Positions 1 through 59,095 of a stretch of DNA of 64,000 nucleotides are shown one piece after another. Position 1 is the first letter of the stretch, and each line of letters opens with the position of its first letter. The translations under genes were made by a program, and so were the position numbers. The notes under the pieces were generated by a model. The model was not told the DNA's origin and did not search any database. It saw only the letters and a list, made by a program, of their open reading frames with translations. This stretch comes from a virus. The stretch spans positions 23,015 to 87,014 of the IMG/VR virus record IMGVR_UViG_3300013126_000016; one strand, 5' to 3'.

Positions 1-69
1 GAGATAGAGGAAATAGAAGAGTTAATAAAGGAGATAGATTTCAAGAAGTTATTAAGTTTTTTGAGGTAG
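1..69 (+). CDS. 3' end of an upstream ORF (partial, ...EIEELIKEIDFKKLLSFLR*)
   Basis: Frame 1 is open from the window edge to TAG at 67-69; this TAG is part of the GC palindrome at 64-83. Confidence 0.45.
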   Translation, partial: EIEEIEELIKEIDFKKLLSFLR

Positions 70-83
70 CCGCGCGGCTACCT
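64..83. repeat. Dispersed GC palindrome, perfect 20-bp copy AGGTAGCCGCGCGGCTACCT
   Basis: Read directly; fully self-complementary. Followed by a T-rich tract, so it could also act as a terminator hairpin. Confidence 0.95.
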
Positions 84-123
84 TTATCTTATTTTTAGTT
101 CTATACTATCCATAAAACTATTT

Positions 124-840
124 ATGCCTCCTGATAACTTACTAGATTTCCTAGAATCTAAAGACAAAATCCAAACCATTCAATCCGATACCTCCAAGAT
201 TATCCGCAAGGAAAATAACATTACTACTGAAGAATATATCTCCCTCTTTATTAACCTTATTATTTTTGTTACTCTTGTTATTAAAGTTATTCAACCACTT
301 ACAGATATTCTTAAACCTTTAAAAATTAAATTAACTAAAAAATACTTTAAAGAAATAAACTTTATTGAAGACCTTTTAGAAGAATTACTATTACTCACTA
401 AAGCTGATAGAGTATGCGTGGGTGTATTTCATAATGGTCAAGTTTGGGGTCACTTTCATTTTATGAAAATGACTATAGCTTATGAAGCTTGTAAGTATGG
501 TATAACTTCTATAAAAAAGTTATATGCAAACGTTCCTCTAGAAAAGATAAAAAACCAACTACAGGTAGTAGAGGAGGATAAGTTTTCAATATTTAATAGG
601 GATGATGATTTAGAACCAGAGTGTATAAAATACCTAGACAGCCAAAACTTAAAAGGTACATTATCTAGGCTCATAACTAATAAAAAAGGGGAAGTAATCG
701 CTATATTAGAGGCTCAAAGACTCTATGATTATTTTGGTAGCGAAGACTTGTCTGATAGCCGTTTAGAGCCTACTTTCAATAGGCTAATACACAATCTTTC
801 TCTAATAAATGAAGGTAAAGAGTTACCTATAGATAATTAA
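124..840 (+). CDS. Membrane-anchored protein with GAF-like domain, possible holin
   Basis: One hydrophobic segment (YISLFINLIIFVTLVIKVI) followed by L..L..ADRV.V..FHNG, a GAF-like start. TM plus GAF is the T4 holin T architecture; the holin call is inference. Confidence 0.4.
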   Translation: MPPDNLLDFLESKDKIQTIQSDTSKIIRKENNITTEEYISLFINLIIFVTLVIKVIQPLTDILKPLKIKLTKKYFKEINFIEDLLEELLLLTKADRVCVGVFHNGQVWGHFHFMKMTIAYEACKYGITSIKKLYANVPLEKIKNQLQVVEEDKFSIFNRDDDLEPECIKYLDSQNLKGTLSRLITNKKGEVIAILEAQRLYDYFGSEDLSDSRLEPTFNRLIHNLSLINEGKELPIDN

Positions 841-873
841 AACAGTGGCAAACTAAGAAATTTAAGATATAAT

Positions 874-2118
874 ATGGATAGTAGATTTTGGATTGTAGTC
901 TTGAACCTGTTCTCCGGTATTATCTTAGCTCAACCTGAAGCCAGCCAATTGTATTTCTTAGCACGCGCTAAAGATACTAATGGTTCTGGTTGGTTGCGTT
1001 TAAGTATTAAATACTTAATGAACTTTTTCAATAAGTCCAAGAGTACGATATTGCGTTGGGCAAGGAACATATTTTATTTTTCTGATAATGAGGTGAGGGG
1101 AGACAGGATCTTCCTGAAATACAAAGCTATTAGGAAAGTAAAGAATGATAGTAAAGTACCGGCCCACGCAAAGTTTGCAGCTGAAAAAACTCTATTAGAA
1201 GATATAAATCAGCTAAAAGCTAAATGTTACGAAGCTGCTATTGAAAGACAACAACAGTCTTGTAAGAAAGCAGTTGACAAAGTAGTGAAATCTAGCAAGC
1301 AAACCTTTGAACCGACCCTAGAAAGCCTACAAAGCTCTAAAATTGCTAAAGGGTGTGAGTGGGTTGACGAGGCGGGGAAAAAAGCGTTTGTAAAGAGGCA
1401 CGTAGTACCGATTGGAGCGAGGCAAGATACAGTAGCTGAGAAAGTAGGAAGGTCGGCGCAAACACTGAGAAAGCACACTAAAACTATAAATAGAGTGCAT
1501 GTGTGGTGGAGGGTATATTACAGAAATCCTAAAGAGGGAATTCCTGAGCAGTATTACCAGTTCAACAAGAAAAAAGTTAGGAATGGTAAGAACTCTGTTG
1601 AAAAGAGGTTGTACAGGAGAATGCCTAATTATTATTTCTGTGATGTGTATGCATGTCCAGAAAAAACAAAAGAAGTGTTTGTGCCGATTAGTCCTACTGA
1701 ACAGTTAGATGAAAAGAGAAGTTTGATAAGAATGATAGTTTCTCAAATGCCGAAGCGCAGAAAGGTAGGCGTGCGCGGGGATTTATGTGAACCTAAAGTA
1801 CAAAAGAAATTCCTGGAAAAGCTATTAGAAGTTCCTAAAGAAAGGATTGACTTATTAGCTGTAGGATTTTTCATGTACGCAAGCGGGCAACCAGATAGCA
1901 AAGAAACAAAGGAAAGAATGCTAGGGATGTTGAAGCAGGTTTCTGTAGGAGATCTGATAGACAAAATTGGCAATACTCTTACTTTGCTCAAGAGCGGGAT
2001 AGATGAAAAGTTAGCTGATTATCTACTCTTGCTATTGAGAAGAGCGCTAAAGTCTGACTGGGTTATTCCACCATTATGGGAAACCTATAGAACGACTGGT
2101 TACTCATTACAGCAATAG
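874..2118 (+). CDS. Basic helix-turn-helix protein, possible replication initiator
   Basis: 414-aa ORF with two HTH-like segments (SIKYLMNFFNKSKSTILRWA; RQDTVAEKVGRSAQTLRKH), followed by an AT-rich palindromic intergenic region. TATAAT at 868-873 abuts the ATG, so the true start may be downstream. Confidence 0.4.
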   Translation: MDSRFWIVVLNLFSGIILAQPEASQLYFLARAKDTNGSGWLRLSIKYLMNFFNKSKSTILRWARNIFYFSDNEVRGDRIFLKYKAIRKVKNDSKVPAHAKFAAEKTLLEDINQLKAKCYEAAIERQQQSCKKAVDKVVKSSKQTFEPTLESLQSSKIAKGCEWVDEAGKKAFVKRHVVPIGARQDTVAEKVGRSAQTLRKHTKTINRVHVWWRVYYRNPKEGIPEQYYQFNKKKVRNGKNSVEKRLYRRMPNYYFCDVYACPEKTKEVFVPISPTEQLDEKRSLIRMIVSQMPKRRKVGVRGDLCEPKVQKKFLEKLLEVPKERIDLLAVGFFMYASGQPDSKETKERMLGMLKQVSVGDLIDKIGNTLTLLKSGIDEKLADYLLLLLRRALKSDWVIPPLWETYRTTGYSLQQ

Positions 2119-2190
2119 GACTAACAACATTCCCGGGCTGCTAGATTAAGCAATAATATCAATAGAAATTAGATCTTTAATAAGTTCTAA

Positions 2191-2226
2191 TAGATTTTTT
2201 TTGTTTAATTAAACAAAAAAAATCTA
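2191..2226. repeat. Perfect 36-bp AT-rich palindrome TAGA-T8-GTTTAATTAAAC-A8-TCTA
   Basis: Read directly; fully self-complementary with no spacer. Confidence 0.95.
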
Positions 2227-2326
2227 CAAATAAATATTTATATAAGAGGCTCAAAACCGCGCTTAAAGAGTTTTTTTAGATTTTAGAGAGCAAACTATAG
2301 TTTTATATTATTTTGTTTTTTTAGTT

Positions 2327-3784
2327 ATGAAAAGAGTAAAATATAAGCCTGCTTATAAAGTTAACGAACTGTTCGTTGGAGAAGGGACGGCAATAGTAAT
2401 TACAGGGTGGACACCAAAAGACAGAATAAAAAGGGAACTAGAAAAAGAAGGAATAAAGTATGCAGCAATAGGAAACTTATACTCCCCAAATTATGGACTA
2501 ACGTATTTAGCAGCTAATCTATTAGCTAATCCCTACGATTGGGATATTTGCCTATTAGGAGGTACAAGAGCCGATTTATTTAGCAATGGTATAGAAGCTG
2601 TAAAAGGGATGCTAGAAGGCAAAATAAAGGGGGATAGAGTATTTAACACAAAGGGAGAACAAGTAGGCAGAATAGATAATATATTTGAGGAAGAACAGAT
2701 AAAGTTATTACAAGAGAAGTTAGCCGCGCGGCTGACTTACCATACATCTATAAAAGATTTAATAAAATACTTAAAAGAGATTAATAAAGATAAGAGAGAA
2801 TTAGAGCAATATGCAGAACCTATAATAAAAGAGATACCTATAATAAAGAGTAAAACCAGGTCAGGCAATACTAACAGTCCTAGAATAGAAGGAAAGACTG
2901 TAGAAGAGGTGTGGATAAAGATATTACATCTTATAAGAACAAATGGTCTATTAACTAATTCTCAATATGGTCAAAGGCAAGAGATAATAAGTTTAAGTGT
3001 TACTATAACAGAACAACCAAAACTTGATTGTCTAGAAATAAAAGAGTGGATGCCTATATCCTATGATTCTTTAAAAGAGTATATACCAAGTTTTTGTTAC
3101 AGTAAGCATAGTGAAGAGACTGAGTATACTTACAGCAATCGTATAAGAAACTTAGAAGGGGTAGACCAAATAGAAAGAATAGTAGATAAATTAATAGCAG
3201 ACCCCAATTCAACTCAATTATATATAAGTTTATGGGATACTTATAAAGACATTTACAATAGTAACCCACCTTGTTTAGTGAGTATATGGGTAAGGTTAAT
3301 AGATAATAAGTTATTACTAGAAGGGAGTTTCAGGTCACAAGATATGTTTACAGCGTACATACCAAACGTTGTAGGGTTAAGAGAGATTCAAAGTATTCTA
3401 GTAAATAAAATAATAGACAAAGGATTATTAGTAGAAGAAGGTGTATTAATAACAAATTCAAAGTCAGCACATTTATACGAGAATGCTTTTAGAGAAGCTG
3501 ACGAGATAATAAGTAAGGAATATAAATATAAGAAAGTGTTAGAACCAAAGGATAGAGTAGGAAATTTTGTGATAGAAGTAGAGGAGCGCGGGGCTACCTT
3601 ACTAAAAATAAAACAACTAACGCCTACAGGAATCCCTATTTCTTTGTATGAAGGAGAAGAACCCTTTAAGTTACTAGTGGAAATAATAAACCAAAATCCC
3701 ACTATAGAAAAACAACATATAGCTTACTTAGGTACAGAACTACAAAAAGCTACTTTATTAAAAAATCAGTACAAGCAAGGTTGA
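2327..3784 (+). CDS. thyA: Thymidylate synthase, cyanobacterial three-domain type (MtrA-like N-terminus, ThyA core, DUF4346-like C-terminus)
   Basis: Catalytic PPCL; FRSQDMF..YIPN with Asn at the dUMP-specificity position; SAHLYE. N-terminal IGNLYSP..GL...ANLLANP and C-terminal HIAYLGTELQKA..Y.Q. Confidence 0.85.
   Translation: MKRVKYKPAYKVNELFVGEGTAIVITGWTPKDRIKRELEKEGIKYAAIGNLYSPNYGLTYLAANLLANPYDWDICLLGGTRADLFSNGIEAVKGMLEGKIKGDRVFNTKGEQVGRIDNIFEEEQIKLLQEKLAARLTYHTSIKDLIKYLKEINKDKRELEQYAEPIIKEIPIIKSKTRSGNTNSPRIEGKTVEEVWIKILHLIRTNGLLTNSQYGQRQEIISLSVTITEQPKLDCLEIKEWMPISYDSLKEYIPSFCYSKHSEETEYTYSNRIRNLEGVDQIERIVDKLIADPNSTQLYISLWDTYKDIYNSNPPCLVSIWVRLIDNKLLLEGSFRSQDMFTAYIPNVVGLREIQSILVNKIIDKGLLVEEGVLITNSKSAHLYENAFREADEIISKEYKYKKVLEPKDRVGNFVIEVEERGATLLKIKQLTPTGIPISLYEGEEPFKLLVEIINQNPTIEKQHIAYLGTELQKATLLKNQYKQG
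2717..2738. repeat. Dispersed GC palindrome copy AAGTTAGCCGCGCGGCTGACTT inside thyA
   Basis: Exact core AGCCGCGCGGCT at 2722-2733; 22 bp with one mismatch; read in frame as KLAARLT. Confidence 0.9.
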
Positions 3785-3808
3785 CAAAGCATAGAAAAAA
3801 AGTAGAGT
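3781..3808 (+). promoter_or_regulatory. Candidate sigma70-type promoter upstream of primase
   Basis: TTGACA (3781-3786), 16-bp spacer, TAGAGT (3803-3808), at the start of a 220-bp intergenic gap. Confidence 0.45.
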
Positions 3809-4006
3809 ATATAAATCTCAAGGTTAATCATCTGCCAAGTTACTCCGAGTAAACTCAACCTGCCAATTTTCATATATCAGAAAACTAAAATGTACAAGAG
3901 CTGTGCTGAAAAGCGCGGCTCTTTTCTTAATAATTTTCTTAAAGTCCATCTACTAAGGATTAAGTTTTTAAAAGCTACTATATCCACTTCACTATAATGT
4001 ACTTTT

Positions 4007-5227
4007 ATGGAAATACAACAGTTAAAAGAATGCTTAAGAATAAGTAAAGTATCAGAGATATTTGAGATAGGAATAACAAATAAGGAGACAAACCAAAGGT
4101 GTCCTTTTTGTGGAGGAAGTAATTCGTTAAAAGTATATAGTGACGTATGGTTTAAGTGTTTTAAATGTGGGAGTAGAGGAGATATAATAAACTTATTGCA
4201 AGTGGCAGGTAAGGCTAATAGTTTCCGGGAGGCTGTGTTAAAATTAAGTAATTTAGTAGACACAACGAAAGAAACTAGAGAATACCGAATAAGATTAACA
4301 GGTATGGAAGCCACTTACAAAAGTTATAGAACTCATAAGAAGAGGAAACAAGGTGCAGAGTATTTAGAGAGTAGAGGATGGAAAAAGGCAATAGATAGAG
4401 GAGATTACGGATATTCTGACGCTCCAGATTTGTTGCAAAGTAAGGGACATACAAAAGAGGAGTTAGAAAATCTAGGGTTAATGTTGACTAAAGAAAGGGA
4501 GCTATATGATAATCATGTAGTATTTCCGGTCAGGACTGCAAATGGAAAGTTAGTGCATGTACAGGGAAGGAATACCGACCCGGCGGCTAACTTAAGATGG
4601 TTAGCAGATAAAGGACAACCCCCTATAAACAACTACTTATACAACCTAGAAAATCTAAATAAGTCCACTAACTACGTTGTTATAGTAGAAGGTATTTCTG
4701 ACGCATTAAGTCTTTTAGAACTAGACGAGCCAACAGTAGGTACTTTTGGAATTAACTTTTCTCTTCTTAGACACATTCCCTCTTTTAAGAATTTAACTCA
4801 TATATTAGCTATCTTTGATAGAGACAAGTATAGTATAGGTACGCCTTTACAAGGAAGATATAAAAGCTGGACACAAGTAGTGCCCGAGTTATGTAAACTT
4901 AGTATTGAGTTAAAGATACCGATATACACTTGGATGGTACCAGACATAAGTGGAGTTAAAGATTTAAATGATTTACTGATAGAAGTAGATTATGACGAAG
5001 GGGCATACAAAGATTTATTAGTAAAAACAGTAATGCCTCTAGAAAGAATGTGCTTAGAAATTATACAAATAACAGAGGATAAAGAACTTTATTGGTTATT
5101 GTGGGAACTTCATAGAGAACTAAAAAATACAAAAGAAGAAAAACTTTTAGAAGATCATGTTAATACAAAATATGGTTCTCTAAAAGAACACTTTAAATGG
5201 ATTGTTAGTTCATCTATGGAGTTTTAA
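4007..5227 (+). CDS. dnaG: DnaG-type DNA primase (zinc finger plus TOPRIM)
   Basis: CPFC...FKCFKCG.RGDII zinc-binding domain; YLESRG; VFPV; VIVEGISDALSL; IFDRD; KDLND. Confidence 0.9.
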   Translation: MEIQQLKECLRISKVSEIFEIGITNKETNQRCPFCGGSNSLKVYSDVWFKCFKCGSRGDIINLLQVAGKANSFREAVLKLSNLVDTTKETREYRIRLTGMEATYKSYRTHKKRKQGAEYLESRGWKKAIDRGDYGYSDAPDLLQSKGHTKEELENLGLMLTKERELYDNHVVFPVRTANGKLVHVQGRNTDPAANLRWLADKGQPPINNYLYNLENLNKSTNYVVIVEGISDALSLLELDEPTVGTFGINFSLLRHIPSFKNLTHILAIFDRDKYSIGTPLQGRYKSWTQVVPELCKLSIELKIPIYTWMVPDISGVKDLNDLLIEVDYDEGAYKDLLVKTVMPLERMCLEIIQITEDKELYWLLWELHRELKNTKEEKLLEDHVNTKYGSLKEHFKWIVSSSMEF

Positions 5228-5229
5228 AT

Positions 5230-6042
5230 ATGGAGTGTAATAGAGTTAGTTTTTATGTAGGTATAACTTCTAACAGAAACATAGTATGTGGTTGTGTAGT
5301 AATAGTAGTAAAATGGATGGATGAAGAAGAGATAATTGTAGTGTTTCCAGACGAAATAAATAGTAGAGGCTGGAATAGGGTAATTCTACCTAAGATAGAG
5401 TATGTAGTAGCTAGAGAGCAAAGGAGGTTAAAATTAAAAGACAAAGAAATAGAAATAGTAATACCAAACATTTACATTTCTTATAGTTCTATTTATAGAA
5501 CAAGGTATAGCAGATTTAATAGTATAACAAAGGAAGCAGATAAACTAGCAGAACAAAAACGCCTATGGTTACTAGACACAGTTTACGCTGATTCTTACCC
5601 TATATATAAGTTAAGGGATAATCTAGGCAAACTGGATATAGATCTTGCACTGACTATCTTAGATAAAGGAATAACTAGCATATTTATAGTTAAAAGGTTA
5701 TCTAAAATAGGATTTTACTATGAAGAAGCATTAAAAAGATTAGACAAAAGGGTATTATTTACAGACTATACAGGTAGTAACACACCTGCATGGTGGTTAG
5801 AAGAATTTGAAGGAAGAAGATTTTGTAACGATACAGGAGTAATAGAAGGGGGATATTTACCAATAAGATTTAGAAGATGGGCAAGGAACATGGGAATAAA
5901 GATATTAGGAATAAAAAAGGAGAAGTATAGTAATCCAGAGTCAATAGAAGAAGAGCACTTATTAACACAAGGAGAAAGGTATGAACAAAGAAGAAGAAAA
6001 AGAAGGAAAAGAAGAGCAGCAGAAAGAGGAAGTAGAAGATAG
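5230..6042 (+). CDS. Hypothetical protein, possibly a degenerate RNase HII fold
   Basis: AEQKR..LD..YPIY.L.DNLG echoes the RNase HII motif AKV.RD..YP.Y.F..NKGY. The N-terminal strand pattern is similar but lacks the catalytic DE. Confidence 0.4.
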   Translation: MECNRVSFYVGITSNRNIVCGCVVIVVKWMDEEEIIVVFPDEINSRGWNRVILPKIEYVVAREQRRLKLKDKEIEIVIPNIYISYSSIYRTRYSRFNSITKEADKLAEQKRLWLLDTVYADSYPIYKLRDNLGKLDIDLALTILDKGITSIFIVKRLSKIGFYYEEALKRLDKRVLFTDYTGSNTPAWWLEEFEGRRFCNDTGVIEGGYLPIRFRRWARNMGIKILGIKKEKYSNPESIEEEHLLTQGERYEQRRRKRRKRRAAERGSRR

Positions 6043-6056
6043 CGGCGCGGCTACCT
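6040..6056. repeat. Dispersed GC palindrome copy TAGCGGCGCGGCTACCT (one mismatch)
   Basis: Read directly; it begins on the TAG stop codon of ORF 5230..6042. Confidence 0.85.
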
Positions 6057-6089
6057 ACTTACTATATTTTATTTCAAGCAACATTAACT

Positions 6090-6503
6090 ATGGCACTTTC
6101 TAAATTACAAAAAAACACTTACCAATTCCAAGCTCTGTTAAATAAACACTCAGGCTCTACTCTAGAAAAACTATTAAAAGTAGATTTATATAGTTGTTTA
6201 CTCTTGTCAGACCAATTAAAAGTAAACAGGAACTATTCTACAGACTGGTTTTACCAAGTTATGATGACAACATTTGACTATTATCTTATACTAGTACCGG
6301 AGTTAGAAAAAGACTTGAAAGTAGTAAAAGAGAATAGAGTAGAAAATGAGAGTGACTGGGAATTAATAATAAAAAGTCATCTTAAAAGATATAAAGCAGA
6401 AGTAATGACAAATTTAAAGTATTCTGATTATTATGAGGAGACTATAGCTTACCTCAAATTACGTCAGGAACTAAGAATATGTTTACAGAACAGAATCAAA
6501 TAA
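6090..6503 (+). CDS. Hypothetical protein
   Basis: 137-aa ORF in a tightly packed run of same-strand genes; no motif recognised. Confidence 0.7.
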   Translation: MALSKLQKNTYQFQALLNKHSGSTLEKLLKVDLYSCLLLSDQLKVNRNYSTDWFYQVMMTTFDYYLILVPELEKDLKVVKENRVENESDWELIIKSHLKRYKAEVMTNLKYSDYYEETIAYLKLRQELRICLQNRIK

Positions 6504-7102
6504 TTAAAGCTGGAGAACTTCTACCTGGTATGAGCGCTATTAGCCAAGAGCCTGTTTGGTTAATAGCTTTAGACCAAGCCTTAGAAAACACGGGTATTGC
6601 TATACTATCTACAGGTAAAGGTATAATCTACACAAGTGTTTTAAAGACTAACAAGAATCATATAATAGAAAATAGACTAGCTTATATTGACAGAGTAATA
6701 GAAGAATTAATAAGGGAGTTAGACCCAATAGATATAGCAATGGAGGAGGTGTATCCTGGATTAGCGGGGAGAACAGTAAGTATTTTGTCACAAGTTTACT
6801 GTACGATAACAAATATATGTCACAGAGTAGATAAGAAGTTTAAAATATACAGTTCATCTAAATTAAGAAGAGGGAGTTGGGTAAAGAAACTAGATTTAGA
6901 AGGGACAAAAGCGTATTGTAGGAAATGGTTAGTAGAAGATTTAGGAGAGGAGCAGATAAAAGACTTAGAGGATCATGAGACTGACGCAATAGGTATTTTA
7001 TGGGCTATGGCACTAGACAAAGGAGCAAGAAAGGATAATATTAAATATATGAACATCCAAAAAACTCCATTTGACCAATTAAAATTACTAAGAAAACTAT
7101 GA
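6479..7102 (+). CDS. ruvC: RuvC-like Holliday junction resolvase
   Basis: LIALDQALENTGIA, ENRL..I...I, PIDIAMEE and DHETDAIGI give the RuvC acidic residues in the expected order. Confidence 0.85.
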   Translation: MFTEQNQIIKAGELLPGMSAISQEPVWLIALDQALENTGIAILSTGKGIIYTSVLKTNKNHIIENRLAYIDRVIEELIRELDPIDIAMEEVYPGLAGRTVSILSQVYCTITNICHRVDKKFKIYSSSKLRRGSWVKKLDLEGTKAYCRKWLVEDLGEEQIKDLEDHETDAIGILWAMALDKGARKDNIKYMNIQKTPFDQLKLLRKL

Positions 7103-8232: not shown

Positions 8233-8236
8233 AAGA

Positions 8237-9758: not shown

Positions 9759-9768
9759 GGTAGTAGAA

Positions 9769-9780
9769 AGCCGCGCGGCT
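9769..9780. repeat. Dispersed GC palindrome core AGCCGCGCGGCT (intergenic)
   Basis: Exact core shortly after the stop of 9006..9758 and upstream of nrdB. Confidence 0.9.
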
Positions 9781-52038: not shown

Positions 52039-52060
52039 AATAAAAAATTAATATAAATAA

Positions 52061-53170
52061 TTAGAAAGTTCCACCATCTATGTTAAAGTTATCTTCTATA
52101 ACTTTTATTTCTTTAGTAATATTTTGCACAACAGGTTTAGTTTTACTAGGTAAAGATAAAGTGTCTATATCGACACTTCCCTGTAAATTTAGATTAAAAG
52201 TAGATGAGTCTTTTTGTTGAAGAGCTTCTGTAGTAAGATTAATCTCATTAATATTAGGGAAAAGAAAAGTATCTTCTGGGAAGGGTTCATATACATCATA
52301 ACTTACTACACAGTATGAAGTATGAAAAATTAGATTTTTAGATTCCCTTATCCAATTAGACGTTGGGTAATCTACAGAAGTAATATGAGGGTTACGAAGA
52401 GCAAAGGGTCGTATATATATTAAAGAACGAATAACTTTAGTTAATAAAGACATCCAAGAGCGGAGTATACGTTCACCAGGTAGAGTAGTAATAGAAATAA
52501 GTGAATTAGAAGAACCTAATTTAGATTCTTTAGTAGTAGGTTGTTCAGTAGTGTGGATGAATTTAGGAGGATTAAGTTTAGTAGTTTGAGGTATAACGTA
52601 ATCTTCAGGAACTAATGAAGGAGTGCGCTCTTCTAACAATTGAGCTAAAGTGCGGGTATTAGGGGAGAGATTGCGGTCTTTGTATTGAAAGGAGTCCGCG
52701 CGGCTAATAGTTAATGGATAAAAATTAGGATAATTACTATCAAGGTTTACTATATCCGCCGCTATTTCTACCGGAAGATTATAAGAAGCATCTTGATAGA
52801 ATAACTGAACTACAAAATTAAAAGTATTTTTAACTGCATAAGAGTTAGAATTAGGTCTACCTAAATATTTATCATCGTACACAACAGATTTATGACTAAG
52901 TCTAGTGCTAAGTTGAGCCGAGGTTTGGTCATAATTATCGTGGAAAGGATAAACAGCAAGAGTAAGACCTGGTTCTACAAGTTCTACCCCACCGAAGTCC
53001 CTAGCACTTGTGATACGTATTGGGTCAATCGGAGTAGATTCTCCTAAGATTACCGGGTAATATATTTCACTATTTTGTATATCTGGATGCTGTAAAATAG
53101 CACATAATAAAGCATTAACTGCTTGATCATGTGTAGGAAATATATTATCTAAGGGAATCTGCTGGGCCAT
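52061..53170 (-). CDS. Probable neck or tail completion protein
   Basis: Position between head genes and sheath; no diagnostic motif. Confidence 0.5.
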   Translation of the reverse strand: MAQQIPLDNIFPTHDQAVNALLCAILQHPDIQNSEIYYPVILGESTPIDPIRITSARDFGGVELVEPGLTLAVYPFHDNYDQTSAQLSTRLSHKSVVYDDKYLGRPNSNSYAVKNTFNFVVQLFYQDASYNLPVEIAADIVNLDSNYPNFYPLTISRADSFQYKDRNLSPNTRTLAQLLEERTPSLVPEDYVIPQTTKLNPPKFIHTTEQPTTKESKLGSSNSLISITTLPGERILRSWMSLLTKVIRSLIYIRPFALRNPHITSVDYPTSNWIRESKNLIFHTSYCVVSYDVYEPFPEDTFLFPNINEINLTTEALQQKDSSTFNLNLQGSVDIDTLSLPSKTKPVVQNITKEIKVIEDNFNIDGGTF

Positions 53171-54801
53171 ATAGAGGGATTATTAAGCTGGTTTACTTGG
53201 TCTTCTATATTTTGTAGTATAGGACTTCTTCTAGGAGTAGAGGAAATAAGTGGAGGTTGAGTATAAGAAGAATTAGTAAGGAGAGCACCTCCCGGAATAG
53301 TCTTGGCAAATACTCTAATAGATTTAGGATTATTACTGTAAGAACTTTGTGCACTCATAAGGTCTCCTGTGGCTATTTCTAGGTCTTCTGGTATCTCTAA
53401 AATATCTAATATTACATAAGTATTAAATCTAGATATAGTCCACGCTACTAGCTCTATAGCAGCCTCTGGTACAGCAAAATCTGTAGGGTCATTTTTAATG
53501 ATAGCCGCCGACATACCTGAATAATTACGAGTAATAGTAATCTCTTTTAAGATAGCCGCCGCTGCTTGTGAATGCCTAGAATTGTCTAACTCTAATTGTT
53601 TACTATTACTAGTAATTCTATTAAACTCTATTTCTGTAAAATCAGTAGTAGGATCTATCTCAGTAGGAGACCAGAACTGCACTCTAATTTTTATTTTAGA
53701 AGTCCCTACAGGAGTAGTTCCTCCAGTTACCCATTTAGCTTTATTTCTAATATACAATACAACTGGTTGCCCAGCATTATCATCTGTAGTGTTAATAGTA
53801 CTAGCTTTATTATTCTTTAAAAGGATAACTAAACCATTAACACTGTTAGTAGTTAAAGAATTAATGTAAGTACCCCATTTAAAAGGGCTTGTGTTAGTAG
53901 ATATGCCGTTATCTTTAAGGTCTACTTTTAAGTTTAAGGAATAGGCTAATACACCTGGCATATTAGTCCTAGGGTAAAAGCTTAGTAAGTGTACTTGGGA
54001 GTAAAACTGATTTGCAAAACCTGAAAGTTGAGGCGCGGCTACTAACCCCTCATTTTCGTAGCGTACGCTTATGCTATTAATAGAATCTGCAAAATCAGAA
54101 ACTATTTGTGCAGCAGTTACTACTGTACCCGCAGCATAGGTTTTAGAAATAATCCAAGTATTTAAAAGGTGGGAAGCGTACCAACTACATTCTAAAGTTT
54201 GAGAAGCAGATAGAGTAATAGAACTAGAATTAAAGATAAAGCCGGAGTCAAAAGTTTCTTCAGATTCAGAAGAAGTAGATTGACTAGCAGACATCTCGTA
54301 GGTAGTACAGATTCTGTCTAAGTCTTTAAGAGCTTGGTCTTCGAGAACTTTAGCATGTTCTGCTTGTTCAGGGACTTGAGCTAGTTGTCCTATTAAAACA
54401 GAAGCGGTTAAAGAAGCAGAAACTCTGCGGATACCATCAGAGAAAAGAGTTTGATTGAGCTGACCAGAAGAATTAGGTCTATCAGGGTCAGCAAACATAA
54501 CTTCGCGGACATGACCTAATCCTTGAAAAAGGAAAGTATTATCTTTTCTTTTAGCAGCGGCTAAGATAAGCGCGATGCGAGGGTCTGCTTCGTTAGTAAT
54601 TATTTTAAATATTTCTAGAGCAGTTCGCCGGCGCAGTAGAACTGACGCACGGCGAACCATTTCAACCATTTTAAATAAAGGCAATCTAGTTATAATTTGC
54701 TCTTCCGTTAAGTTTTCAGCTTGTTCTTCTGTAGTAGAAGGGTCTATACCGCCTGATTGAGGGTAACTAAATCTATCTCTGAAATTTAACGTAACAGCCA
54801 T
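53149..54801 (-). CDS. Probable head-tail connector or neck protein
   Basis: Position; helical N-terminus with ...QALKDLDRI, recalling Mu gp36-like adaptors. Confidence 0.5.
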   Translation of the reverse strand: MAVTLNFRDRFSYPQSGGIDPSTTEEQAENLTEEQIITRLPLFKMVEMVRRASVLLRRRTALEIFKIITNEADPRIALILAAAKRKDNTFLFQGLGHVREVMFADPDRPNSSGQLNQTLFSDGIRRVSASLTASVLIGQLAQVPEQAEHAKVLEDQALKDLDRICTTYEMSASQSTSSESEETFDSGFIFNSSSITLSASQTLECSWYASHLLNTWIISKTYAAGTVVTAAQIVSDFADSINSISVRYENEGLVAAPQLSGFANQFYSQVHLLSFYPRTNMPGVLAYSLNLKVDLKDNGISTNTSPFKWGTYINSLTTNSVNGLVILLKNNKASTINTTDDNAGQPVVLYIRNKAKWVTGGTTPVGTSKIKIRVQFWSPTEIDPTTDFTEIEFNRITSNSKQLELDNSRHSQAAAAILKEITITRNYSGMSAAIIKNDPTDFAVPEAAIELVAWTISRFNTYVILDILEIPEDLEIATGDLMSAQSSYSNNPKSIRVFAKTIPGGALLTNSSYTQPPLISSTPRRSPILQNIEDQVNQLNNPSIWPSRFP

Positions 54802-54802
54802 A

Positions 54803-55309
54803 TTATACCTCTGGAGTTAGAATACGTTTACATTCATTAACAACTGAAGTAAGAGAAGAAAACTTAGATTGAATAAAGTTAACGTAATCTACGGGTATAG
54901 GGTCTAATTGACCCAAAGATTTAACATGGGTAACTAAGTTTTTCCAGTTATAACCTTCAGGTAAAGCAGATTTTAATCTATCTTCAAAAGGGTTGTCTGT
55001 TAATTGGTGAAAAAACTCCGGGTTTTCATCATAAAAAGGAAGTTCTTCTTTTACAGGATTGAAGTTTGGAGTAGAGTAGATATCTTCTCCAGAAGGTGTA
55101 ATTATAGATTCAATAAGAGAGTCACTAACAGAAGAAGAGACTTCAGAATCATCATAAGAAACTATAACAAAAGAAGAAGCATAAGGAGAGTTTTGCATAG
55201 ATTGAGTATCTACATCAGAAAGATGAACAACATCACCACATTCTATCAGTTTAGATACCCCGTTGACTATAAGTCTTTCAGGTTTTACAGCAATAACAAA
55301 GTAACTCAT
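54803..55309 (-). CDS. Hypothetical head-region protein
   Basis: 168-aa ORF in the operon. Confidence 0.65.
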   Translation of the reverse strand: MSYFVIAVKPERLIVNGVSKLIECGDVVHLSDVDTQSMQNSPYASSFVIVSYDDSEVSSSVSDSLIESIITPSGEDIYSTPNFNPVKEELPFYDENPEFFHQLTDNPFEDRLKSALPEGYNWKNLVTHVKSLGQLDPIPVDYVNFIQSKFSSLTSVVNECKRILTPEV

Positions 55310-55322
55310 TTACTTAAAAAAA

Positions 55323-56111
55323 CTAAGGGTTTTTGTTTTGGTTAACTACTACTAATTCTCCGGAAGCCAAAGTAGGAGTAGCTCCGCTGTAAGTTAATAC
55401 CAAAGTAGCTAAATGTAAAGAAGCACAATCACGAATTAAAGATAAAGAATTAGAGTTAGTGTAAGGAGGGTAAACACCACTAACATAAACAAGTTGTTCT
55501 GCTTCATTAACTTTAAAGTTCCCGGCGGCTAACTTAGAAGAGGTTTGATTACCCCAACCACGATTGTTACCTTTTTGAGAAGGAACAATAGGATTCTCAA
55601 AAATAGGATCGGCTAAAGACCAAGCACCGCTAACTCTTTTATAGAATTTAGAAGTTTGTAAATACTCATCCATGTCAAAACACTCAATTGCCCAATCATC
55701 ATTAGCAACTGCATCCCCATTTAATAAAGTCGTTGGTGCAGAACTTCCTTTTATATAGGGTAAAACTCGTCTTGAAGGATTAGCAATTATGTAATAGTAA
55801 TAAGTACCAGCAGAAGTAACAGTAGAACCACCAGAGTGTAAAGTGGTAGTAGGAGTAATAGTTAAAGTAACAGAGGAGCTTAGAGTAGCTAACTGACTAT
55901 CTAAATAAGCTGAACCCACAGCTATTGTTACTGTACTAGCTACAGAAGTAGCAGAACTAGCAGCTGCAATAGTAGCAGAAGGTGTTAGACCAGAATAAAC
56001 AGAAGAATAAGGATAATAGGAAAGACCGACACCTCTAGATTCAGGATATAAGTCTTTTAGAAAACGAAAGCCAGGTGCTACCTGTTGTGGAATTGGAGTT
56101 GAACTAGCCAT
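55323..56111 (-). CDS. Probable capsid decoration or structural protein
   Basis: Immediately after the major capsid gene; Ser/Thr/Ala-rich beta-type sequence. Confidence 0.55.
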   Translation of the reverse strand: MASSTPIPQQVAPGFRFLKDLYPESRGVGLSYYPYSSVYSGLTPSATIAAASSATSVASTVTIAVGSAYLDSQLATLSSSVTLTITPTTTLHSGGSTVTSAGTYYYYIIANPSRRVLPYIKGSSAPTTLLNGDAVANDDWAIECFDMDEYLQTSKFYKRVSGAWSLADPIFENPIVPSQKGNNRGWGNQTSSKLAAGNFKVNEAEQLVYVSGVYPPYTNSNSLSLIRDCASLHLATLVLTYSGATPTLASGELVVVNQNKNP

Positions 56112-56153
56112 AATTTATTTAAATCAATATTTATATAAAGTTTTATAGATACT

Positions 56154-56180
56154 TTACTACAGGCCTTAAGCCTATAGTAA
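56154..56180 (-). terminator. Hairpin just after the major capsid gene
   Basis: TTACTACAGGC-CTTAA-GCCTATAGTAA: 11-bp stem with one G.U pair on the - strand; no strong U-tract. Confidence 0.5.
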
Positions 56181-56186
56181 GTACAA

Positions 56187-57503
56187 CTAGAAAGTACCGT
56201 AAGCCAAGTTAGATTGGATAATGAACTTATTAGATAGCTCACCTTCGTCACAAACATCCAGAATAGAAATCCAGTGAGGATAAATAACAACAGGTAGGAA
56301 AGCATCACCCATTTGCATAACGCGTCCTGGAGGTGCTGGAGGCTCGCTCATAGCCGAAGTACGAACAAAGATACCTGGGTTACCATTTGGAGATTCACCG
56401 CTACAATGATAAGTAAACCCTAAAGTAGCACTAGGATTATCAATAGCGTTACGAGCTACTAAGGCTACTTTATGAGCAGGCCAGTAAGTTTTAATTTTGT
56501 TATCTACTGGATCTCTGTACATACCATCTACTGCTGTGATACGCAAACCAGCAATAGAAGTAATTTCTCCGCCTGGGCCCATAGTAATATAAGTAGCGGG
56601 TGCCCCACCTGTGCTAGTTACAATATTTGCGTTACCAGCTACTGTGCTAGTAGGAGCGTTATAAACAAGAACACCAGGTACATTACTTAAAGATTTGATA
56701 TACTCGTTTTCCATTAAGATAGTGAGTAAATCAGTTGAAATAATAATGTCTGTAAAAGTGTTTTTATTAGTTTTTCGTAAATATTCTTTTAAGAGACGTA
56801 AGCCGTAGATAATATCAGCTTTAGGATCTGTCCAAGCTACTCCAGCACGTTGGTCAGTAGACTTAAACATTAAAGCTTCTTTACGACCTTTATTGTTTGC
56901 CAAAGCTTTAGCAGCAGTAAATCCAGTACCCGATACATTAGCTCCGGCTGTAACACTACTATCAAACCCATCGTATCTAAAATTGTTATGAACAGGAATG
57001 TTAGAGGAAACATTAATGCTAACACCTGTACGTGGGTCAGTGTAGTTAATACCACCTAATAGAGCTTTAGTAATAAAGAGGTCTTTAGTACGAGCGTGAC
57101 GGGCGACTAATTGTTGTACACGGCGTTGAACAATATCTTCTGGACGGTAAGCTTGGTTAAAAGTACCAGGCTGACGGAGTTGGTTAATGAGGTGTTGTTC
57201 AATAAAGTCATCTTCACGAACTACTGCGGGGCGAGCAGTGAATGCACGAATTCTATTTTGTTCTAAGAAACCACCGCTAGGTACACCAAATCGAACGATA
57301 GGCATAATACCTAAACCTTCGATGATTTGTTCTACAACGATAGTACGTTCAGGGATGTTGCGGTCGGGGAAAAACTCACCTAAAGGAGTTCTAGCAATCT
57401 GATAAAACGATTGCGCTAACATAGTTAGCTGTAGTGACCCTAATTGATACTCTTCCCCTATAAACTGATAGGGACTAGTACCTGCTTGAAATTCAATAGC
57501 CAT
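56187..57503 (-). CDS. Major capsid protein (phage cap E-like, HK97 fold)
   Basis: FFPD; PIVR.G; AL.GG.I.Y; W.DP.ADI; C-terminal FLPVV.YP. Follows the protease gene. Confidence 0.9.
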   Translation of the reverse strand: MAIEFQAGTSPYQFIGEEYQLGSLQLTMLAQSFYQIARTPLGEFFPDRNIPERTIVVEQIIEGLGIMPIVRFGVPSGGFLEQNRIRAFTARPAVVREDDFIEQHLINQLRQPGTFNQAYRPEDIVQRRVQQLVARHARTKDLFITKALLGGINYTDPRTGVSINVSSNIPVHNNFRYDGFDSSVTAGANVSGTGFTAAKALANNKGRKEALMFKSTDQRAGVAWTDPKADIIYGLRLLKEYLRKTNKNTFTDIIISTDLLTILMENEYIKSLSNVPGVLVYNAPTSTVAGNANIVTSTGGAPATYITMGPGGEITSIAGLRITAVDGMYRDPVDNKIKTYWPAHKVALVARNAIDNPSATLGFTYHCSGESPNGNPGIFVRTSAMSEPPAPPGRVMQMGDAFLPVVIYPHWISILDVCDEGELSNKFIIQSNLAYGTF

Positions 57504-57548
57504 ATTACTTCCTATAATTATTTATAAATATTTTTAAACTTATTAAAA

Positions 57549-58574
57549 TTAGATTCGTTTACCTTTAGTCATCTCAGCAAAAACGCGTTGGTTTTCTTTG
57601 ATGATATCTAAATAAGGATTAGGAATCTCTTCTGCTGGAGAGTTAGAAACTGGTTCAGAAGAACCTTGAACTTCCGAGAATTTTTGATGGTTTTCAGAGG
57701 ATAGTTCTGATAAACGAAGAAATTGAGCCTCGCGTTGTTCTTTAGACAAAGAGGGTAATAGGTCTGAAAACACGCGTTTTGTATCAGAAGAAATATTAAG
57801 GGATTGTACTTTTTCTAATAGAGAAGCAGTTGTTTGAGCTTCTATAACAGATTGAGCTTCTTTTAGTTGAGTTTCAGTCAGTTGTAGTTTTTGAGTCAAG
57901 TCTTCTACTTTTAAAGCCAAATCAGCGATTTGCTGAGCAACTTTATCAGAGAAAGCAACTGGGGTTTCAATAGGAGTATCCATAATAGTAGGTTCAGTCA
58001 TTGGAGGTTTATTAAAATCAAATAAAAAAGAAACAGATTTACCTTCTTCAGATTCTGAAAAGGTTTGGTGGACAGCTTGTACTCTAGGAAGCCCAGTAAG
58101 AAAAGGTCTATTAGTTAAAGCTGCACCTCTTAATACAGTACCTATAGATTCCCCAGTAGTTTTACTTTTAGCATTACGATAAAACTCCCCACTGGAATAT
58201 CTATAAGCGCCATCTTTAACGGTATTAAACACTTTATCATTTACAGGGTCAAAAAGACCAAATAAGGTATTATTATCTTGATAAAGGTCTTTTAAAAAAG
58301 CTACGGAAGGGGCTCCTTCTATAGAATCAGAGTCTGTAGGATGACCTGTGAATAGGGGGGGTTCGTAGCCAGTAGCTTTATCAGACCAGTTTTTTAAGAT
58401 ATCGTCAAAGTCTTTTTGCTTAAAAGAAACGTCCCCGTACTCAGGATGCACCCAATTACCTAAAACTGCTATAGGCACTTTGAGGTATTTAGTGTCTTCG
58501 CTATATAGTTCAGCAGATAAATTATATTTAGGTTCGATTGTTATAAGATTATTCATAGTTAGTCTATAGTACAA
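57549..58574 (-). CDS. Mu-like prohead protease with C-terminal scaffold
   Basis: G.W.HP.YG; GH; YRYSSGEF; LRGAALTNRPFL.GL; coiled-coil C-terminus. The start may be the second Met. Confidence 0.88.
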   Translation of the reverse strand: MYYRLTMNNLITIEPKYNLSAELYSEDTKYLKVPIAVLGNWVHPEYGDVSFKQKDFDDILKNWSDKATGYEPPLFTGHPTDSDSIEGAPSVAFLKDLYQDNNTLFGLFDPVNDKVFNTVKDGAYRYSSGEFYRNAKSKTTGESIGTVLRGAALTNRPFLTGLPRVQAVHQTFSESEEGKSVSFLFDFNKPPMTEPTIMDTPIETPVAFSDKVAQQIADLALKVEDLTQKLQLTETQLKEAQSVIEAQTTASLLEKVQSLNISSDTKRVFSDLLPSLSKEQREAQFLRLSELSSENHQKFSEVQGSSEPVSNSPAEEIPNPYLDIIKENQRVFAEMTKGKRI

Positions 58575-59095
58575 CCTTCAAGGGAGCCGTGTTTAAGCTT
58601 ATAGAGTTGTTTATATTTTTGATTAATATAAATAGCAGTAGCTTCTTTTAGTTCAAATTGTGGGCAGGATTCAACAGCTTCAGAATACAATTCTAGGTCT
58701 AAAGAAGGCTGGGGCTGGGGAGGCTCTGGAGGCTGTTCTGAGAGAGTTTCTGAGGAATCAGAGGGGAGGAGGGAAGAGGGAGGTGTATGGGAGTCACAGT
58801 AATAGACTGAGATAACACAGCAATCCCACTTAGAGCAATGAGCTTCTTGAGTAACAGGATTATAAGTAGAGAAAGCGCAATTACAGCAGCAATTAGCTAA
58901 ACGGTAGTTAGGGATGCAGCTTTGGGATTCCAAAATAGATTCTGGGGATTGGTATGGGTTATAAGAGGAATAGTCTGATAGTTTTAAGGTAGCCGCGCGG
59001 CTATCTTTAGTTTTATCAGGTTCTACCTCTGTAGTAGCTTCTGTCTTACCTAAGTCAGCACTTATTAAACTTTCTATTAATTCATTATCATTCAT
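58559..59095 (-). CDS. Cys-rich protein, possible HiPIP-like metal cluster domain
   Basis: PNYR..CCCNCAF-x10-CSKWDCC..V.YCD. Confidence 0.55.
   Translation of the reverse strand: MNDNELIESLISADLGKTEATTEVEPDKTKDSRAATLKLSDYSSYNPYQSPESILESQSCIPNYRLANCCCNCAFSTYNPVTQEAHCSKWDCCVISVYYCDSHTPPSSLLPSDSSETLSEQPPEPPQPQPSLDLELYSEAVESCPQFELKEATAIYINQKYKQLYKLKHGSLEGCTID
58986..59007. repeat. Dispersed GC palindrome copy AAGGTAGCCGCGCGGCTATCTT inside a CDS
   Basis: Exact 14-bp TAGCCGCGCGGCTA; 22 bp with one mismatch; read as DSRAATL on the - strand. Confidence 0.95.

What the first reader, a model, noticed from the sequence alone, without database searches (positions are those of the whole stretch)
1..59070. 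Local G/C skew inverts at the palindrome copies, giving a saw-tooth strand asymmetry
Seen (hand counts on the + strand, 60-nt windows before versus after a copy): 1-60 15G/1C vs 91-150 4G/12C; 3521-3580 14G/2C vs 3601-3660 9G/11C; 5981-6040 18G/3C vs 6061-6120 3G/11C; 42301-42360 19G/5C vs 42391-42450 6G/10C; 58921-58980 18G/4C vs 59011-59070 8G/14C. Three of these pairs lie inside a single CDS, so gene boundaries do not cause the flip. On each strand the DNA 5' of the site is G-rich. I picked these sites by eye, and some copies (e.g. 26625) show little flip. Inference: a strand-asymmetric process starts or stops at these sites and has left a mutational footprint. Options are break plus 5' resection leaving 3' ssDNA tails (Chi-like), multiple priming or termination sites, or nick translation. 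C deamination alone would not explain the accompanying A-richness.
Basis: partly seen in the sequence, partly recalled or inferred. Interest (0 to 1): 0.85.

Follow-up and report, generated by a model that had tools for sequence, protein, structure and literature searches.

The report
Strand-bias flip anchored at phage palindromes
In this uncultured freshwater cyanophage, copies of one GC-rich hairpin palindrome sit where the G-versus-C balance of the DNA strands flips, most strongly at silent codon positions, which looks like the scar of a DNA process that repeatedly stops or cuts at these sites.

Summary
All ten hand counts are exact. In the 87-kb contig that holds the window, 35 copies lie within 6 mismatches of GGTAGCCGCGCGGCTACC. 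On average G exceeds C in the 300 nt before a copy, the skew drops below zero just after it, and it recovers over about 400 nt.

- No random set of centres reached the observed value.
- The effect grades 4-fold sites > third > first > second codon positions (skew difference 0.90, 0.58, 0.37, 0.23).
- An unbiased k-mer scan returns sub-words of this palindrome as the top associates.
- 0 of 49 opposite-sign flips carry the motif.
- Other hairpins in relatives show nothing. Relatives that keep the palindrome show the flip.

Caveats: only 8 of the 18 strongest flips are at the motif. Some cited cases have local causes: a (TAAC)9.5 microsatellite, acidic protein tails, an intein edge.

The dipole rides on a very strong replication-type skew that changes sign just left of the window. 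My best reading is a motif-anchored mutational footprint of recurrent single-strandedness (fork arrest, or break plus resection). The mechanism is not shown. Earlier notes of this scan report similar repeat-anchored skews in other genomes.

The parts
65..82 (.). Perfect palindrome copy (7-bp stem GGTAGCC/GGCTACC, loop GCGC). Its TAG is the stop of a small upstream ORF with a Glu-rich tail. A T-rich tail and a 41-nt leader follow.
   Evidence: D150 46
2719..2736 (.). 3-mismatch copy inside the CDS 2327-3784. It has a compensatory stem change (G-C to T-A). The flip is weak.
   Evidence: D60 7, D150 22
3581..3598 (.). 6-mismatch copy that keeps only the right half, inside the thymidylate-synthase-like CDS. 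A 399-nt C-rich excursion (3594-3992) follows.
   Evidence: D150 31
6038..6055 (.). 2-mismatch copy. Its TAG is the stop codon of ORF 5230-6042, which has a Glu/Lys-rich tail. A C-rich excursion (6051-6298) follows.
   Evidence: D60 24, D150 44
9766..9783 (.). 3-mismatch intergenic copy after ORF 9006-9758. The upstream side is very G-rich (23 G, 3 C), but the skew does not change sign downstream.
   Evidence: D150 27
32355..32372 (.). Perfect intergenic copy between two minus-strand genes. It is conserved at the orthologous place in relatives G001, G002 and G003.
   Evidence: D60 28
32374..32411 (+). (TAAC)9.5 microsatellite abutting the palindrome. Relative G001 does not have it.
42368..42385 (.). 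6-mismatch, imperfect palindrome-like copy inside the minus-strand CDS 41791-42906. A C-rich excursion (42381-42546) follows.
   Evidence: D150 38, D300 79
52691..52708 (.). 5-mismatch copy that keeps the right half, inside CDS 52061-53170 (-).
   Evidence: D150 29
58988..59005 (.). 1-mismatch copy inside the first 36 codons of ORF 58559-59095 (-). Its flanks extend the hairpin (z -2.9). A 403-nt C-rich excursion (59023-59425) follows.
   Evidence: D150 40, D300 78
16720..16737 (.). 6-mismatch copy inside the 5263-aa gene, with a clear flip. Four other weak copies in that gene (18203, 26626, 27077, 27265) show little or none.
   Evidence: D150 31 against 5, 6, -11, 5
870..61600 (+). Right arm of the genome-wide skew. 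The plus strand is rich in G and A at silent sites whichever strand the genes are on (4-fold GC skew +0.56, AT skew +0.44).

Best explanation
The palindrome (stem GGTAGCC, 4-nt loop, stem GGCTACC) is a conserved hairpin element of this Ma-LMM01-like freshwater cyanophage. It sits mostly just after stop codons, like a terminator.

Around its copies, intact or decayed, the DNA carries a reverse-complement-symmetric GC-skew dipole. On each strand, the roughly 200-300 nt that run into the site are enriched in G and depleted in C.

I read this as a mutational footprint. The strand that ends 3' at the site is left single-stranded again and again on both sides. Two causes fit: replication forks arrest at the site, or the site is broken and resected 5' to 3'. 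Single-stranded DNA then suffers the same strand-biased damage that produces the very strong genome-wide replication skew.

Shown: the dipole, its specificity, its codon-position gradient and its conservation.
Inferred: that it is mutational, that single-strandedness is the cause, and which event produces it.
For: 1. Motif specificity. The top 5-, 6- and 7-mers associated with positive D150 are sub-words of the palindrome: GCGGC z 7.5 (n=61), GCGGCT z 7.0 (n=36), CGGCTA z 7.0 (n=40). GC-rich islands unlike it have D150 4.3, against 21.3 for palindrome-like ones.
2. Sign specificity. 8 of 18 D150 peaks >=40 (1.4 expected) and 4 of 6 peaks >=50 (0.5 expected) have a motif 6-mer within 40 nt. None of the 49 opposite flips <=-30 does (3.7 expected).
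3. The pressure acts at nucleotide level. Skew(up 200) minus skew(down 200) is 0.90 at 4-fold sites (G99 C30 against G54 C117; z 5.3), 0.58 at all third positions, 0.37 at first and 0.23 at second positions. 0 of 3000 arm-matched random sets reach these values.
4. Copies inside coding sequence show it. Right arm, 13 copies with >=4 mismatches: 4-fold skew 0.67, 0.77 | 0.06, 0.15, 0.38, 0.53.
5. It is not a general property of hairpins. Non-family hairpins in relatives have D150 of 0.4 (n=12), 3.1 (n=17), 0.4 (n=65) and -0.8 (n=55). Motif words in relatives that lack the family give -1.9 and -7.1.
6. It is maintained in relatives. G001: 9 hits, D150 14.1, 8 of 9 positive. Core-bearing hits in G002 and G003: 21 to 72. 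G004 and G005 lack the family and the effect.
7. The same sign arises whichever way a fork or a break is processed, and the sign is opposite to the origin-type switch of the global skew.
8. The phage encodes a PD-(D/E)XK exonuclease and a RuvC-like resolvase side by side.
9. Precedent: human meiotic break hotspots carry mirror-image strand-asymmetric mutations in the resected flanks (PMC7615360, passages read).
Against: - No end, nick, pause or single-stranded intermediate was observed. All holder runs are kept as contigs, and no pile-up of molecule ends was reported.
- Silent sites also respond first to selection on RNA or DNA composition, so the codon-position gradient does not prove mutation.
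- Non-coding positions show only 0.20 (z 1.0, not significant).
- Hairpin stability does not predict the dipole (rho 0.04). The most stable perfect copies at contig 18024, 13871 and 19387 have D150 of 3, 2 and 0.
- The change is mainly a gain of G. The gain of T expected from simple cytosine deamination is not seen.
- 10 of the 18 strongest flips have no motif.
- One of the largest (contig 8975, D150 62) lies 50 nt past an intein's end.
- Solo half-sites show a strong dipole in only one orientation relative to the arm. A symmetric break does not predict that.
Confidence: 0.4

Rival explanations
1. Selection, not mutation. The hairpin works in RNA as a terminator or processing site. Its function favours G-rich RNA before it and C-rich, G-poor RNA after it, for example R-loop-assisted termination or an unstructured leader for the next gene. 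Silent sites carry the signal because they are free to change.
For: - 10 of 12 copies with 0-3 mismatches are intergenic or overlap a stop codon.
- 92.9% of stem cells pair, with 2 compensatory pairs.
- T-rich tails follow many copies.
- Co-directional intergenic leaders without hairpins are also C>G on the sense strand (G180 C258, skew -0.18).
- Non-coding positions do not show a larger effect than silent sites.
Against: - Degenerate copies inside coding sequence that cannot fold (contig 7576, 8975, 65382, 75705) have large dipoles.
- Terminator-like hairpins of other sequence in relatives have none.
- The effect reaches 200-400 nt into neighbouring genes on both sides, whichever strand the genes are on.
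- The genome otherwise shows no skew linked to transcription direction.
Confidence: 0.2
2. Local initiation. The hairpins are sites where DNA synthesis is primed on both strands. The first few hundred nucleotides are made by a biased enzyme, or the sign rule of this phage's skew is inverted, so that the sites are origin-like and the global switch is a terminus.
For: - The dipole is reverse-complement symmetric with a length scale of 200-400 nt.
- A primase gene is present.
- The global skew has an unusual signature, with G and A enriched on the same strand. Which strand is the exposed one is therefore not certain.
Against: - The global switch coincides with a 1.4-kb non-coding region that holds 4.4 copies of a 43-nt repeat and an AT-rich stretch. 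That is origin-like.
- Under the usual rule the local sign is terminus-type.
- There is no direct evidence of priming.
Confidence: 0.1
3. The palindromes mark joints between modules that were exchanged or inserted: cassette borders, an intein edge, accessory genes. The flip would be the meeting of DNA segments with different skew histories.
For:
- The genes after copies 65 and 6038 have atypical third-position skew over their length (-0.21 and 0.03, against 0.25-0.32 for their neighbours).
- An intein ends 50 nt before contig 8975.
- Contigs of other samples join or end at copies. De Bruijn-graph repeats would do the same.
Against: - Random joints would give both signs, yet 31 of 35 copies have D150>0 and 0 of 49 opposite flips carry the motif.
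- The profile ramps and decays with distance instead of stepping at gene borders.
- Within the intein only the last ~450 nt are G-rich.
Confidence: 0.1
4. There is no single cause. The association is a sum of unrelated local features (acidic tails, G-poor leaders, a microsatellite) plus choice by eye.
For: - The (TAAC)9.5 repeat at 32374-32411.
- Glu/Lys tails before 65 and 6038.
- 44 or so of the 52 D60 peaks lie elsewhere.
- 35 of 40 C-rich excursions start elsewhere.
Against: - Objective site sets, random-centre permutations, block shuffles, decoy islands, the k-mer scan and the relatives all give the same answer.
- G001 lacks the microsatellite but keeps the flip at that site (D150 24).
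Confidence: 0.05

Closest known systems
Replication-associated strand compositional skew (sign switch at origin and terminus)
   Same: The bias is strand-specific and independent of gene direction. It is strongest at 4-fold sites. The genome as a whole shows it (4-fold GC skew -0.70 left, +0.56 right).
   Different: The dipoles are local (200-400 nt), repeated at about 35 motif copies, anchored on a sequence, and of terminus-type sign inside both arms. AT skew hardly changes.
Strand-asymmetric mutagenesis in resected flanks of human meiotic double-strand-break hotspots (PMC7615360; passages read)
   Same: A sequence-defined centre, mirror-image asymmetry on the two sides, and loss of C on the strand that ends 3' at the centre.
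   Different: This is a phage, the scale is shorter (0.2-0.4 kb against 1-2 kb), and it is seen as equilibrium composition rather than as new mutations. No break is shown, and the loss of A reported there is not seen here.
[quoted passage not shown]
   Same: Abrupt local skews inside functional genes, most marked at third codon positions, with some effect on amino-acid content. The mechanism is unknown.
   Different: GRINS are defined as duplicated regions >500 bp with >80% identity and correlated GC and TA skews. Here the flanks of different copies share no visible similarity, TA skew does not follow, and a hairpin sits at the centre.
Intrinsic terminators and REP-like intergenic hairpin repeats
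   Same: A GC-rich 7-bp stem, a 4-nt loop, often a T-rich tail, a position after stop codons, a repeated identical sequence, and compensatory stem changes.
   Different: I found no description of flanking skew for such elements. Other hairpins in relatives lack it. No RNA ends are mapped.
Chi-type recombination hotspots (recalled knowledge, no call)
   Same: A short over-represented word (GCGGCTA: 20 in the window against 1.9 expected). The single strand predicted to lie 5' of the word matches the G-rich side.
   Different: The element is a palindrome with a paired stem. The orientation bias of solo words is weak (9 plus against 5 minus in the window). The host and its nuclease are unknown.

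Membership tests
Intrinsic (Rho-independent) terminator | GC-rich stem-loop that can pair | tested here: met
   7-bp stem. 92.9% of 112 cells pair in 16 copies, 2 pairs have compensatory changes, and the covariation score is 0.117 against 0.074 shuffled (4 of 500 shuffles as high).
Intrinsic (Rho-independent) terminator | Run of T directly after the stem on the sense strand | tested here: inconclusive
   By my count on alignment A1, 8 of 16 copies have >=5 T in the first 8 nt. The tool's own scan called only 1 of the 4 copies with 0-3 mismatches in window 1-14000.
Intrinsic (Rho-independent) terminator | Lies just downstream of a stop codon | tested here: met
   10 of 12 copies with 0-3 mismatches are intergenic or overlap a stop. 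2 lie inside ORFs.
Intrinsic (Rho-independent) terminator | RNA 3' ends at the site | not testable with these tools
   No holder run is on record as RNA, and all runs are kept as contigs.
Replication origin or terminus skew switch | Sign change of silent-site skew independent of gene strand | tested here: met
   Met globally at contig ~18-24 kb. Met locally at copies, with terminus-type sign.
Replication origin or terminus skew switch | One switch per replichore boundary, extending over the whole arm | tested here: not met
   The local dipoles decay within 200-500 nt and recur at tens of sites.
GRINS | Duplicated region >500 bp with >80% identity elsewhere | tested here: not met
   The flanks of copies printed side by side share no visible similarity beyond the palindrome. 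No formal repeat search of the flanks was run.
GRINS | Intense and correlated GC and TA skews | tested here: not met
   The GC dipole is strong. The AT change is small, and in the A direction rather than the T direction.
Break-plus-resection mutational footprint | Mirror-image asymmetry around a defined centre | tested here: met
Break-plus-resection mutational footprint | Physical breaks or 3' tails at the centre | not testable with these tools
   Only contigs were available. No pile-up of ends was reported.
Chi-like hotspot | Oriented, non-palindromic word that is co-oriented with replication | tested here: inconclusive
   Solo CGGCTA: right arm 15 top against 8 bottom, left arm 4 against 6. 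Solo GCGCGG: 13 against 2 and 2 against 5, but that word is itself G-rich.

The most novel reading that the evidence does not exclude
The palindromes are programmed sites where this phage's replication forks are halted or its DNA is cut and resected, a phage counterpart of Ter or Chi-type sites that seeds recombination-dependent replication. The silent-site dipole is the evolutionary scar of that activity. The same principle would underlie the repeat-anchored skew halos that earlier notes of this scan report around hairpin repeats in several bacteria.
Probability: 0.25. Interest if true: 0.85.

Novelty: new variant of a known kind. Interest (0 to 1): 0.7.

Why it matters
If the dipole is a mutational scar, sequence alone can reveal where a DNA transaction (fork arrest, breakage or priming) recurs in an uncultured virus. 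It would locate these sites to within a few hundred bases and without any experiment.

It would also show that short hairpin repeats can reshape the codon choice, and even the amino-acid content, of neighbouring genes. That matters for codon-usage models, for detecting horizontal transfer by composition, and for predicting origins from skew.

A compact phage genome with about 35 sites is a tractable place to test a phenomenon that seems to recur around hairpin repeats in bacteria. I found no description of it in four literature searches.

Tried and rejected
1. Extended stem. I tested whether the G-rich and C-rich flanks pair with each other. Folding +/-40 nt against flank shuffles gave z from -2.9 to +1.2 for 12 copies. 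Only contig 82002 (-2.9) and 16908 (-2.0) stand out, so the idea was rejected as a general cause.

2. Alternative genetic code hiding plus-strand genes under the G-rich strand. Rejected: the minus-strand frames are open under table 11 and no plus-strand frame opens.

3. General property of gene ends. Rejected by the hairpin-free junction control. Intergenic leaders are, however, C>G on the sense strand with or without hairpins.

4. Chance matches favoured at flips. The bias is small: chance hits in block-shuffled genomes have D150 of 4-6.5. My first decoy test with shuffled palindromes was contaminated by hits at the real copies, and I do not rely on it.

5. The anomaly lying only on the origin-distal side. 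This is seen at 4-fold sites. With all sites, both flanks shift. Saturation of the 4-fold skew may explain the difference. Left open.

6. Only partly borne out: left arm 6 against 1, right arm 5 against 6 by the 11-mer with up to 2 mismatches.

7. Exact 18-mer in IMG/VR. It gave 5 loci with one copy each, 3 of them in relatives. Near-identical search of the phage collection found no match.

8. Rfam and tRNA scans of contig 15.4-24.6 kb found nothing.

9. Sequencing runs. No RNA holder was listed. All 20 runs are contigs. Laying 4 of the 20 runs gave no ends of molecules. It reported 962 differences, of which only 40 were printed, so I could not build a polarised substitution spectrum.

10. More distant relatives G006 and G010 (190-217 kb, GC 44-49%) have weak skew and no palindrome family.

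11. The ORF set behind every codon-position result is my own mechanical call: longest ATG ORFs of at least 80 aa, with overlaps removed. The small ORF before window 65 is therefore counted as non-coding.

12. Papers. PMC7615360 and PMC10030826: passages found by term. PMC8256042: outline, abstract and section 5. All others: search listings only. Supplementary files were not opened.

Full report
WHAT THE DNA IS

The window is bases 23015-87014 of an 87,014-nt IMG/VR virus contig that CheckV rates 59% complete. It encodes a tail sheath, a major head protein, a portal, a large terminase, a primase, ribonucleotide reductase, a thymidylate-synthase-like protein, a serine integrase and a 5263-aa protein. 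The head protein's nearest cultured relatives are Microcoleus and Microcystis (Ma-LMM01-type) myophages at 28-32% identity. The DNA is held by freshwater and lake metagenomes. Standard code applies: minus-strand frames are fully open.

THE ELEMENT

GGTAGCCGCGCGGCTACC is a 7-bp stem with a 4-nt loop.
- The window has 6 copies with up to 3 mismatches, against 0.00 expected. The contig has 12.
- The loop varies (GCGC, GACC, TGCC, ACAA) while the stem is kept. In 16 copies, including relatives, 92.9% of stem cells pair and two pairs show compensatory changes.
- 10 of the 12 lie between genes or overlap a stop codon, and in three the palindrome's TAG is the stop. Many are followed by a T-rich tail.
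- Copies are conserved in place in relatives whose flanks are only about 68-84% identical.
- Decayed copies are real family members. There are 23 hits at 4-6 mismatches against about 2 in block-shuffled genomes. The 7-mer GCGGCTA occurs 20 times in the window against 1.9 expected.

Silent sites carry a very strong strand bias that ignores gene direction.
- 4-fold GC skew is -0.70 (AT skew -0.52) at contig 4-18 kb. It is +0.56 (AT +0.44) from 23.9 to 84.6 kb.
- The cumulative skew minimum lies at contig 17-18 kb, beside a 1.4-kb gene-free region. That region holds 4.4 copies of a 43-nt repeat (contig 18210-18398) and an AT-rich stretch.
- This is an origin-type switch about 5 kb left of the window. 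The window is almost entirely the G-rich arm, so every window before a copy starts from a positive baseline.

CHECKING THE OBSERVATION

The ten hand counts are exact. D is the G-minus-C count before a copy minus that after it.

| Copy class | n | D60 | D150 | D300 |
|---|---|---|---|---|
| 0-3 mismatches | 12 | 12.2 (12 positive) | 22.3 (11) | 29.2 (10) |
| 4-6 mismatches | 23 | 6.8 (17) | 16.7 (20) | 26.5 (19) |
| Null sd | - | 7.9 | 15.2 | 23.5 |

No random draw reached the means of these two classes in any of the 20,000 draws per test. Hits at exactly 7 mismatches fall to D150 4.4.

The pooled profile in 100-nt bins is 0.10, 0.20, 0.27 before and -0.12, -0.09, -0.06, -0.02, 0.04 after, on a baseline near 0.05. 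Both arms show it on their own baselines.

CONTROLS
- Chance hits in block-shuffled genomes: D150 4-6.5.
- GC-rich 18-mers unlike the palindrome: 4.3 (n=103). Palindrome-like ones: 21.3 (n=28, 96% positive).
- Gene ends without the hairpin: mean D60 between -2.1 and +0.7 (n=49 in three groups). With it: 9.6 (n=7), 21.0 (n=2), 2.0 (n=1).
- An unbiased scan of all strand-collapsed 5-, 6- and 7-mers puts sub-words of the palindrome at the top, with z up to 7.5.
- Of D150 peaks >=40, 8 of 18 have a motif 6-mer within 40 nt (1.4 expected). Of 49 opposite flips <=-30, none does (3.7 expected).

RESULTS AGAINST A SIMPLE PICTURE
- 10 of the 18 strongest flips have no motif.
- 35 of the 40 C-rich excursions in the right arm start elsewhere.
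- Perfect copies at contig 18024, 13871 and 19387 barely flip.
- Hairpin stability does not predict the dipole (rho 0.04).

LOCAL CAUSES IN THE CITED CASES
- The C-rich side of 32355 is a (TAAC)9.5 repeat. The orthologous copy in G001 lacks that repeat and still has D150 24.
- The G-rich sides of 65 and 6038 are Glu/Lys-rich protein tails.
- The genes after these two copies have atypical third-position skew along their length (-0.21 and 0.03).
- The largest dipole in the contig (8975, D150 62) lies 50 nt past the end of an intein in a helicase gene.

NATURE OF THE PRESSURE

The difference between skew in the 200 nt before and the 200 nt after a copy, by site class:

| Site class | Difference | z |
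|---|---|---|
| 4-fold sites | 0.90 (G99 C30 against G54 C117) | 5.3 |
| All third positions | 0.58 | 6.2 |
| First positions | 0.37 | 6.2 |
| Second positions | 0.23 | 3.8 |
| Non-coding | 0.20 | 1.0 (few sites) |

The pressure therefore acts on nucleotides, not through proteins, although it does move amino-acid content.

Thirteen decayed right-arm copies, nearly all inside coding sequence, show 4-fold skew 0.67, 0.77 | 0.06, 0.15, 0.38, 0.53.

Base frequencies show a consistent gain of G on the strand running into the site: +0.035 to +0.07 at 4-fold sites in all four flank classes. C is lost where it is abundant. A/T balance changes little.

At 4-fold sites the visible anomaly is on the origin-distal flank in both arms. 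With all sites, both flanks move. Saturation may explain this difference.

Solo half-sites with GCGGCTA on the G-rich strand have strong dipoles, and the other orientation has weak ones. One possibility is that the half lying in the flank where the local and global pressures add is the half that decays.

SPECIFICITY ACROSS GENOMES
- Relatives that keep the family show the flip. G001: 9 hits, 8 positive at D150. Core-bearing hits of G002 and G003: 21 to 72. G001 is close kin, and G002 and G003 look like one genome in two orientations, so these are not fully independent.
- G004 and G005 lack both the family and the effect.
- Other hairpins, including terminator-like ones, in G002, G005, G006 and G010 have D150 near zero. 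Motif words occurring in G006 and G010 have no dipole.
- The effect therefore needs this motif in this clade.

MECHANISM

The sign means that on each side the strand ending 3' at the site is G-rich and C-poor. Three events would leave that strand single-stranded:
- a double-strand break or paired nicks followed by 5'-to-3' resection;
- arrest of a fork arriving from either direction, which exposes the lagging template behind it and the leading template ahead of it;
- with the opposite sign rule, local priming.

The phage has a PD-(D/E)XK exonuclease next to a RuvC-like resolvase. This fits recombination-linked replication but proves nothing. Human meiotic hotspots give a precedent for mirror-image asymmetry in resected flanks (PMC7615360).

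I could not obtain raw reads, ends or a polarised mutation spectrum.

Selection on RNA or DNA composition around a terminator remains a live rival. It is weakened by the dipoles at non-folding intragenic copies and by their absence at other terminator-like hairpins.

COMPARISON AND NOVELTY

The element fits an intrinsic-terminator or REP-like hairpin by structure and position, but RNA ends are untested. The dipole is not a GRINS: there are no duplicated flanks and no correlated TA skew. It is not an ordinary origin or terminus switch either.

Four searches found no description of skew dipoles anchored on hairpin repeats. A review of strand asymmetries has none in the passages I searched.

Earlier unchecked notes of this scan report repeat-anchored silent-site skews in at least six other genomes, with varying geometry. 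This is therefore another instance, the first in a phage among those listed.

VERDICT

The mechanism is open.

Noticed in passing
whole contig; window 870-61600 is the G-rich arm: The genome-wide silent-site strand bias is extremely strong. 4-fold GC skew is -0.70 on the left and +0.56 on the right, and A follows G on the same strand. It is independent of gene direction and changes sign at contig ~18-24 kb.
   Followed up: partly
contig 18008-19430 (about 3.6-5 kb left of the window); repeat at contig 18210-18398: A gene-free 1.4 kb at the cumulative-skew minimum. It holds 4.4 copies of a 43-nt repeat, a 12-nt AT-rich triple repeat, and palindrome copies at both ends. It is a candidate replication origin. 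No tRNA or Rfam match was found.
   Followed up: partly
contig 7994-8926 (outside the window), in ORF 7661-10351: The helicase gene is interrupted after its Walker A motif by an intein-like insert of about 310 aa. The insert starts with Cys and ends with His-Asn before Thr. It has a weak LAGLIDADG_3 hit (E 0.022, below the cut-off) and PHROG hits to intein-bearing terminases. Relatives align only from residue ~406-422 onward.
   Followed up: partly
window 32374-32411: A perfect (TAAC)9.5 microsatellite touches the palindrome. Relative G001 has only about two units there, plus a second small hairpin.
   Followed up: partly
window 65-82, 6038-6055; contig 13572: The TAG inside the palindrome serves as the stop codon of the upstream gene at several copies.
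   Followed up: partly
contig 10889-10941 (outside the window): Two half-copies face each other across an 11-nt AT loop. This gives a 15-bp stem, a larger hairpin built from the same word.
   Followed up: no
window 15478-31269 (-): A single 5263-aa ORF with no stop in frame. It contains several internal tandem repeats (periods of 9, 18, 36 and 111 nt).
   Followed up: no
contig 4070-5113 and 6883-7743 (outside the window): Genes for a spore-photoproduct-lyase-like protein and a uracil-DNA-glycosylase-superfamily protein. Both are DNA-damage repair functions that may bear on the mutational regime.
   Followed up: no
L069 16902-16934, 5196-5206, 18052: Contigs from three other freshwater samples end at, or jump between, palindrome copies and a place near contig 5200. 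This could be an assembly-graph effect of the repeat or real rearrangement between copies.
   Followed up: no
window 13903-15381 (-): A large serine recombinase (integrase or invertase type) sits at the junction between the plus-strand and minus-strand gene blocks.
   Followed up: no
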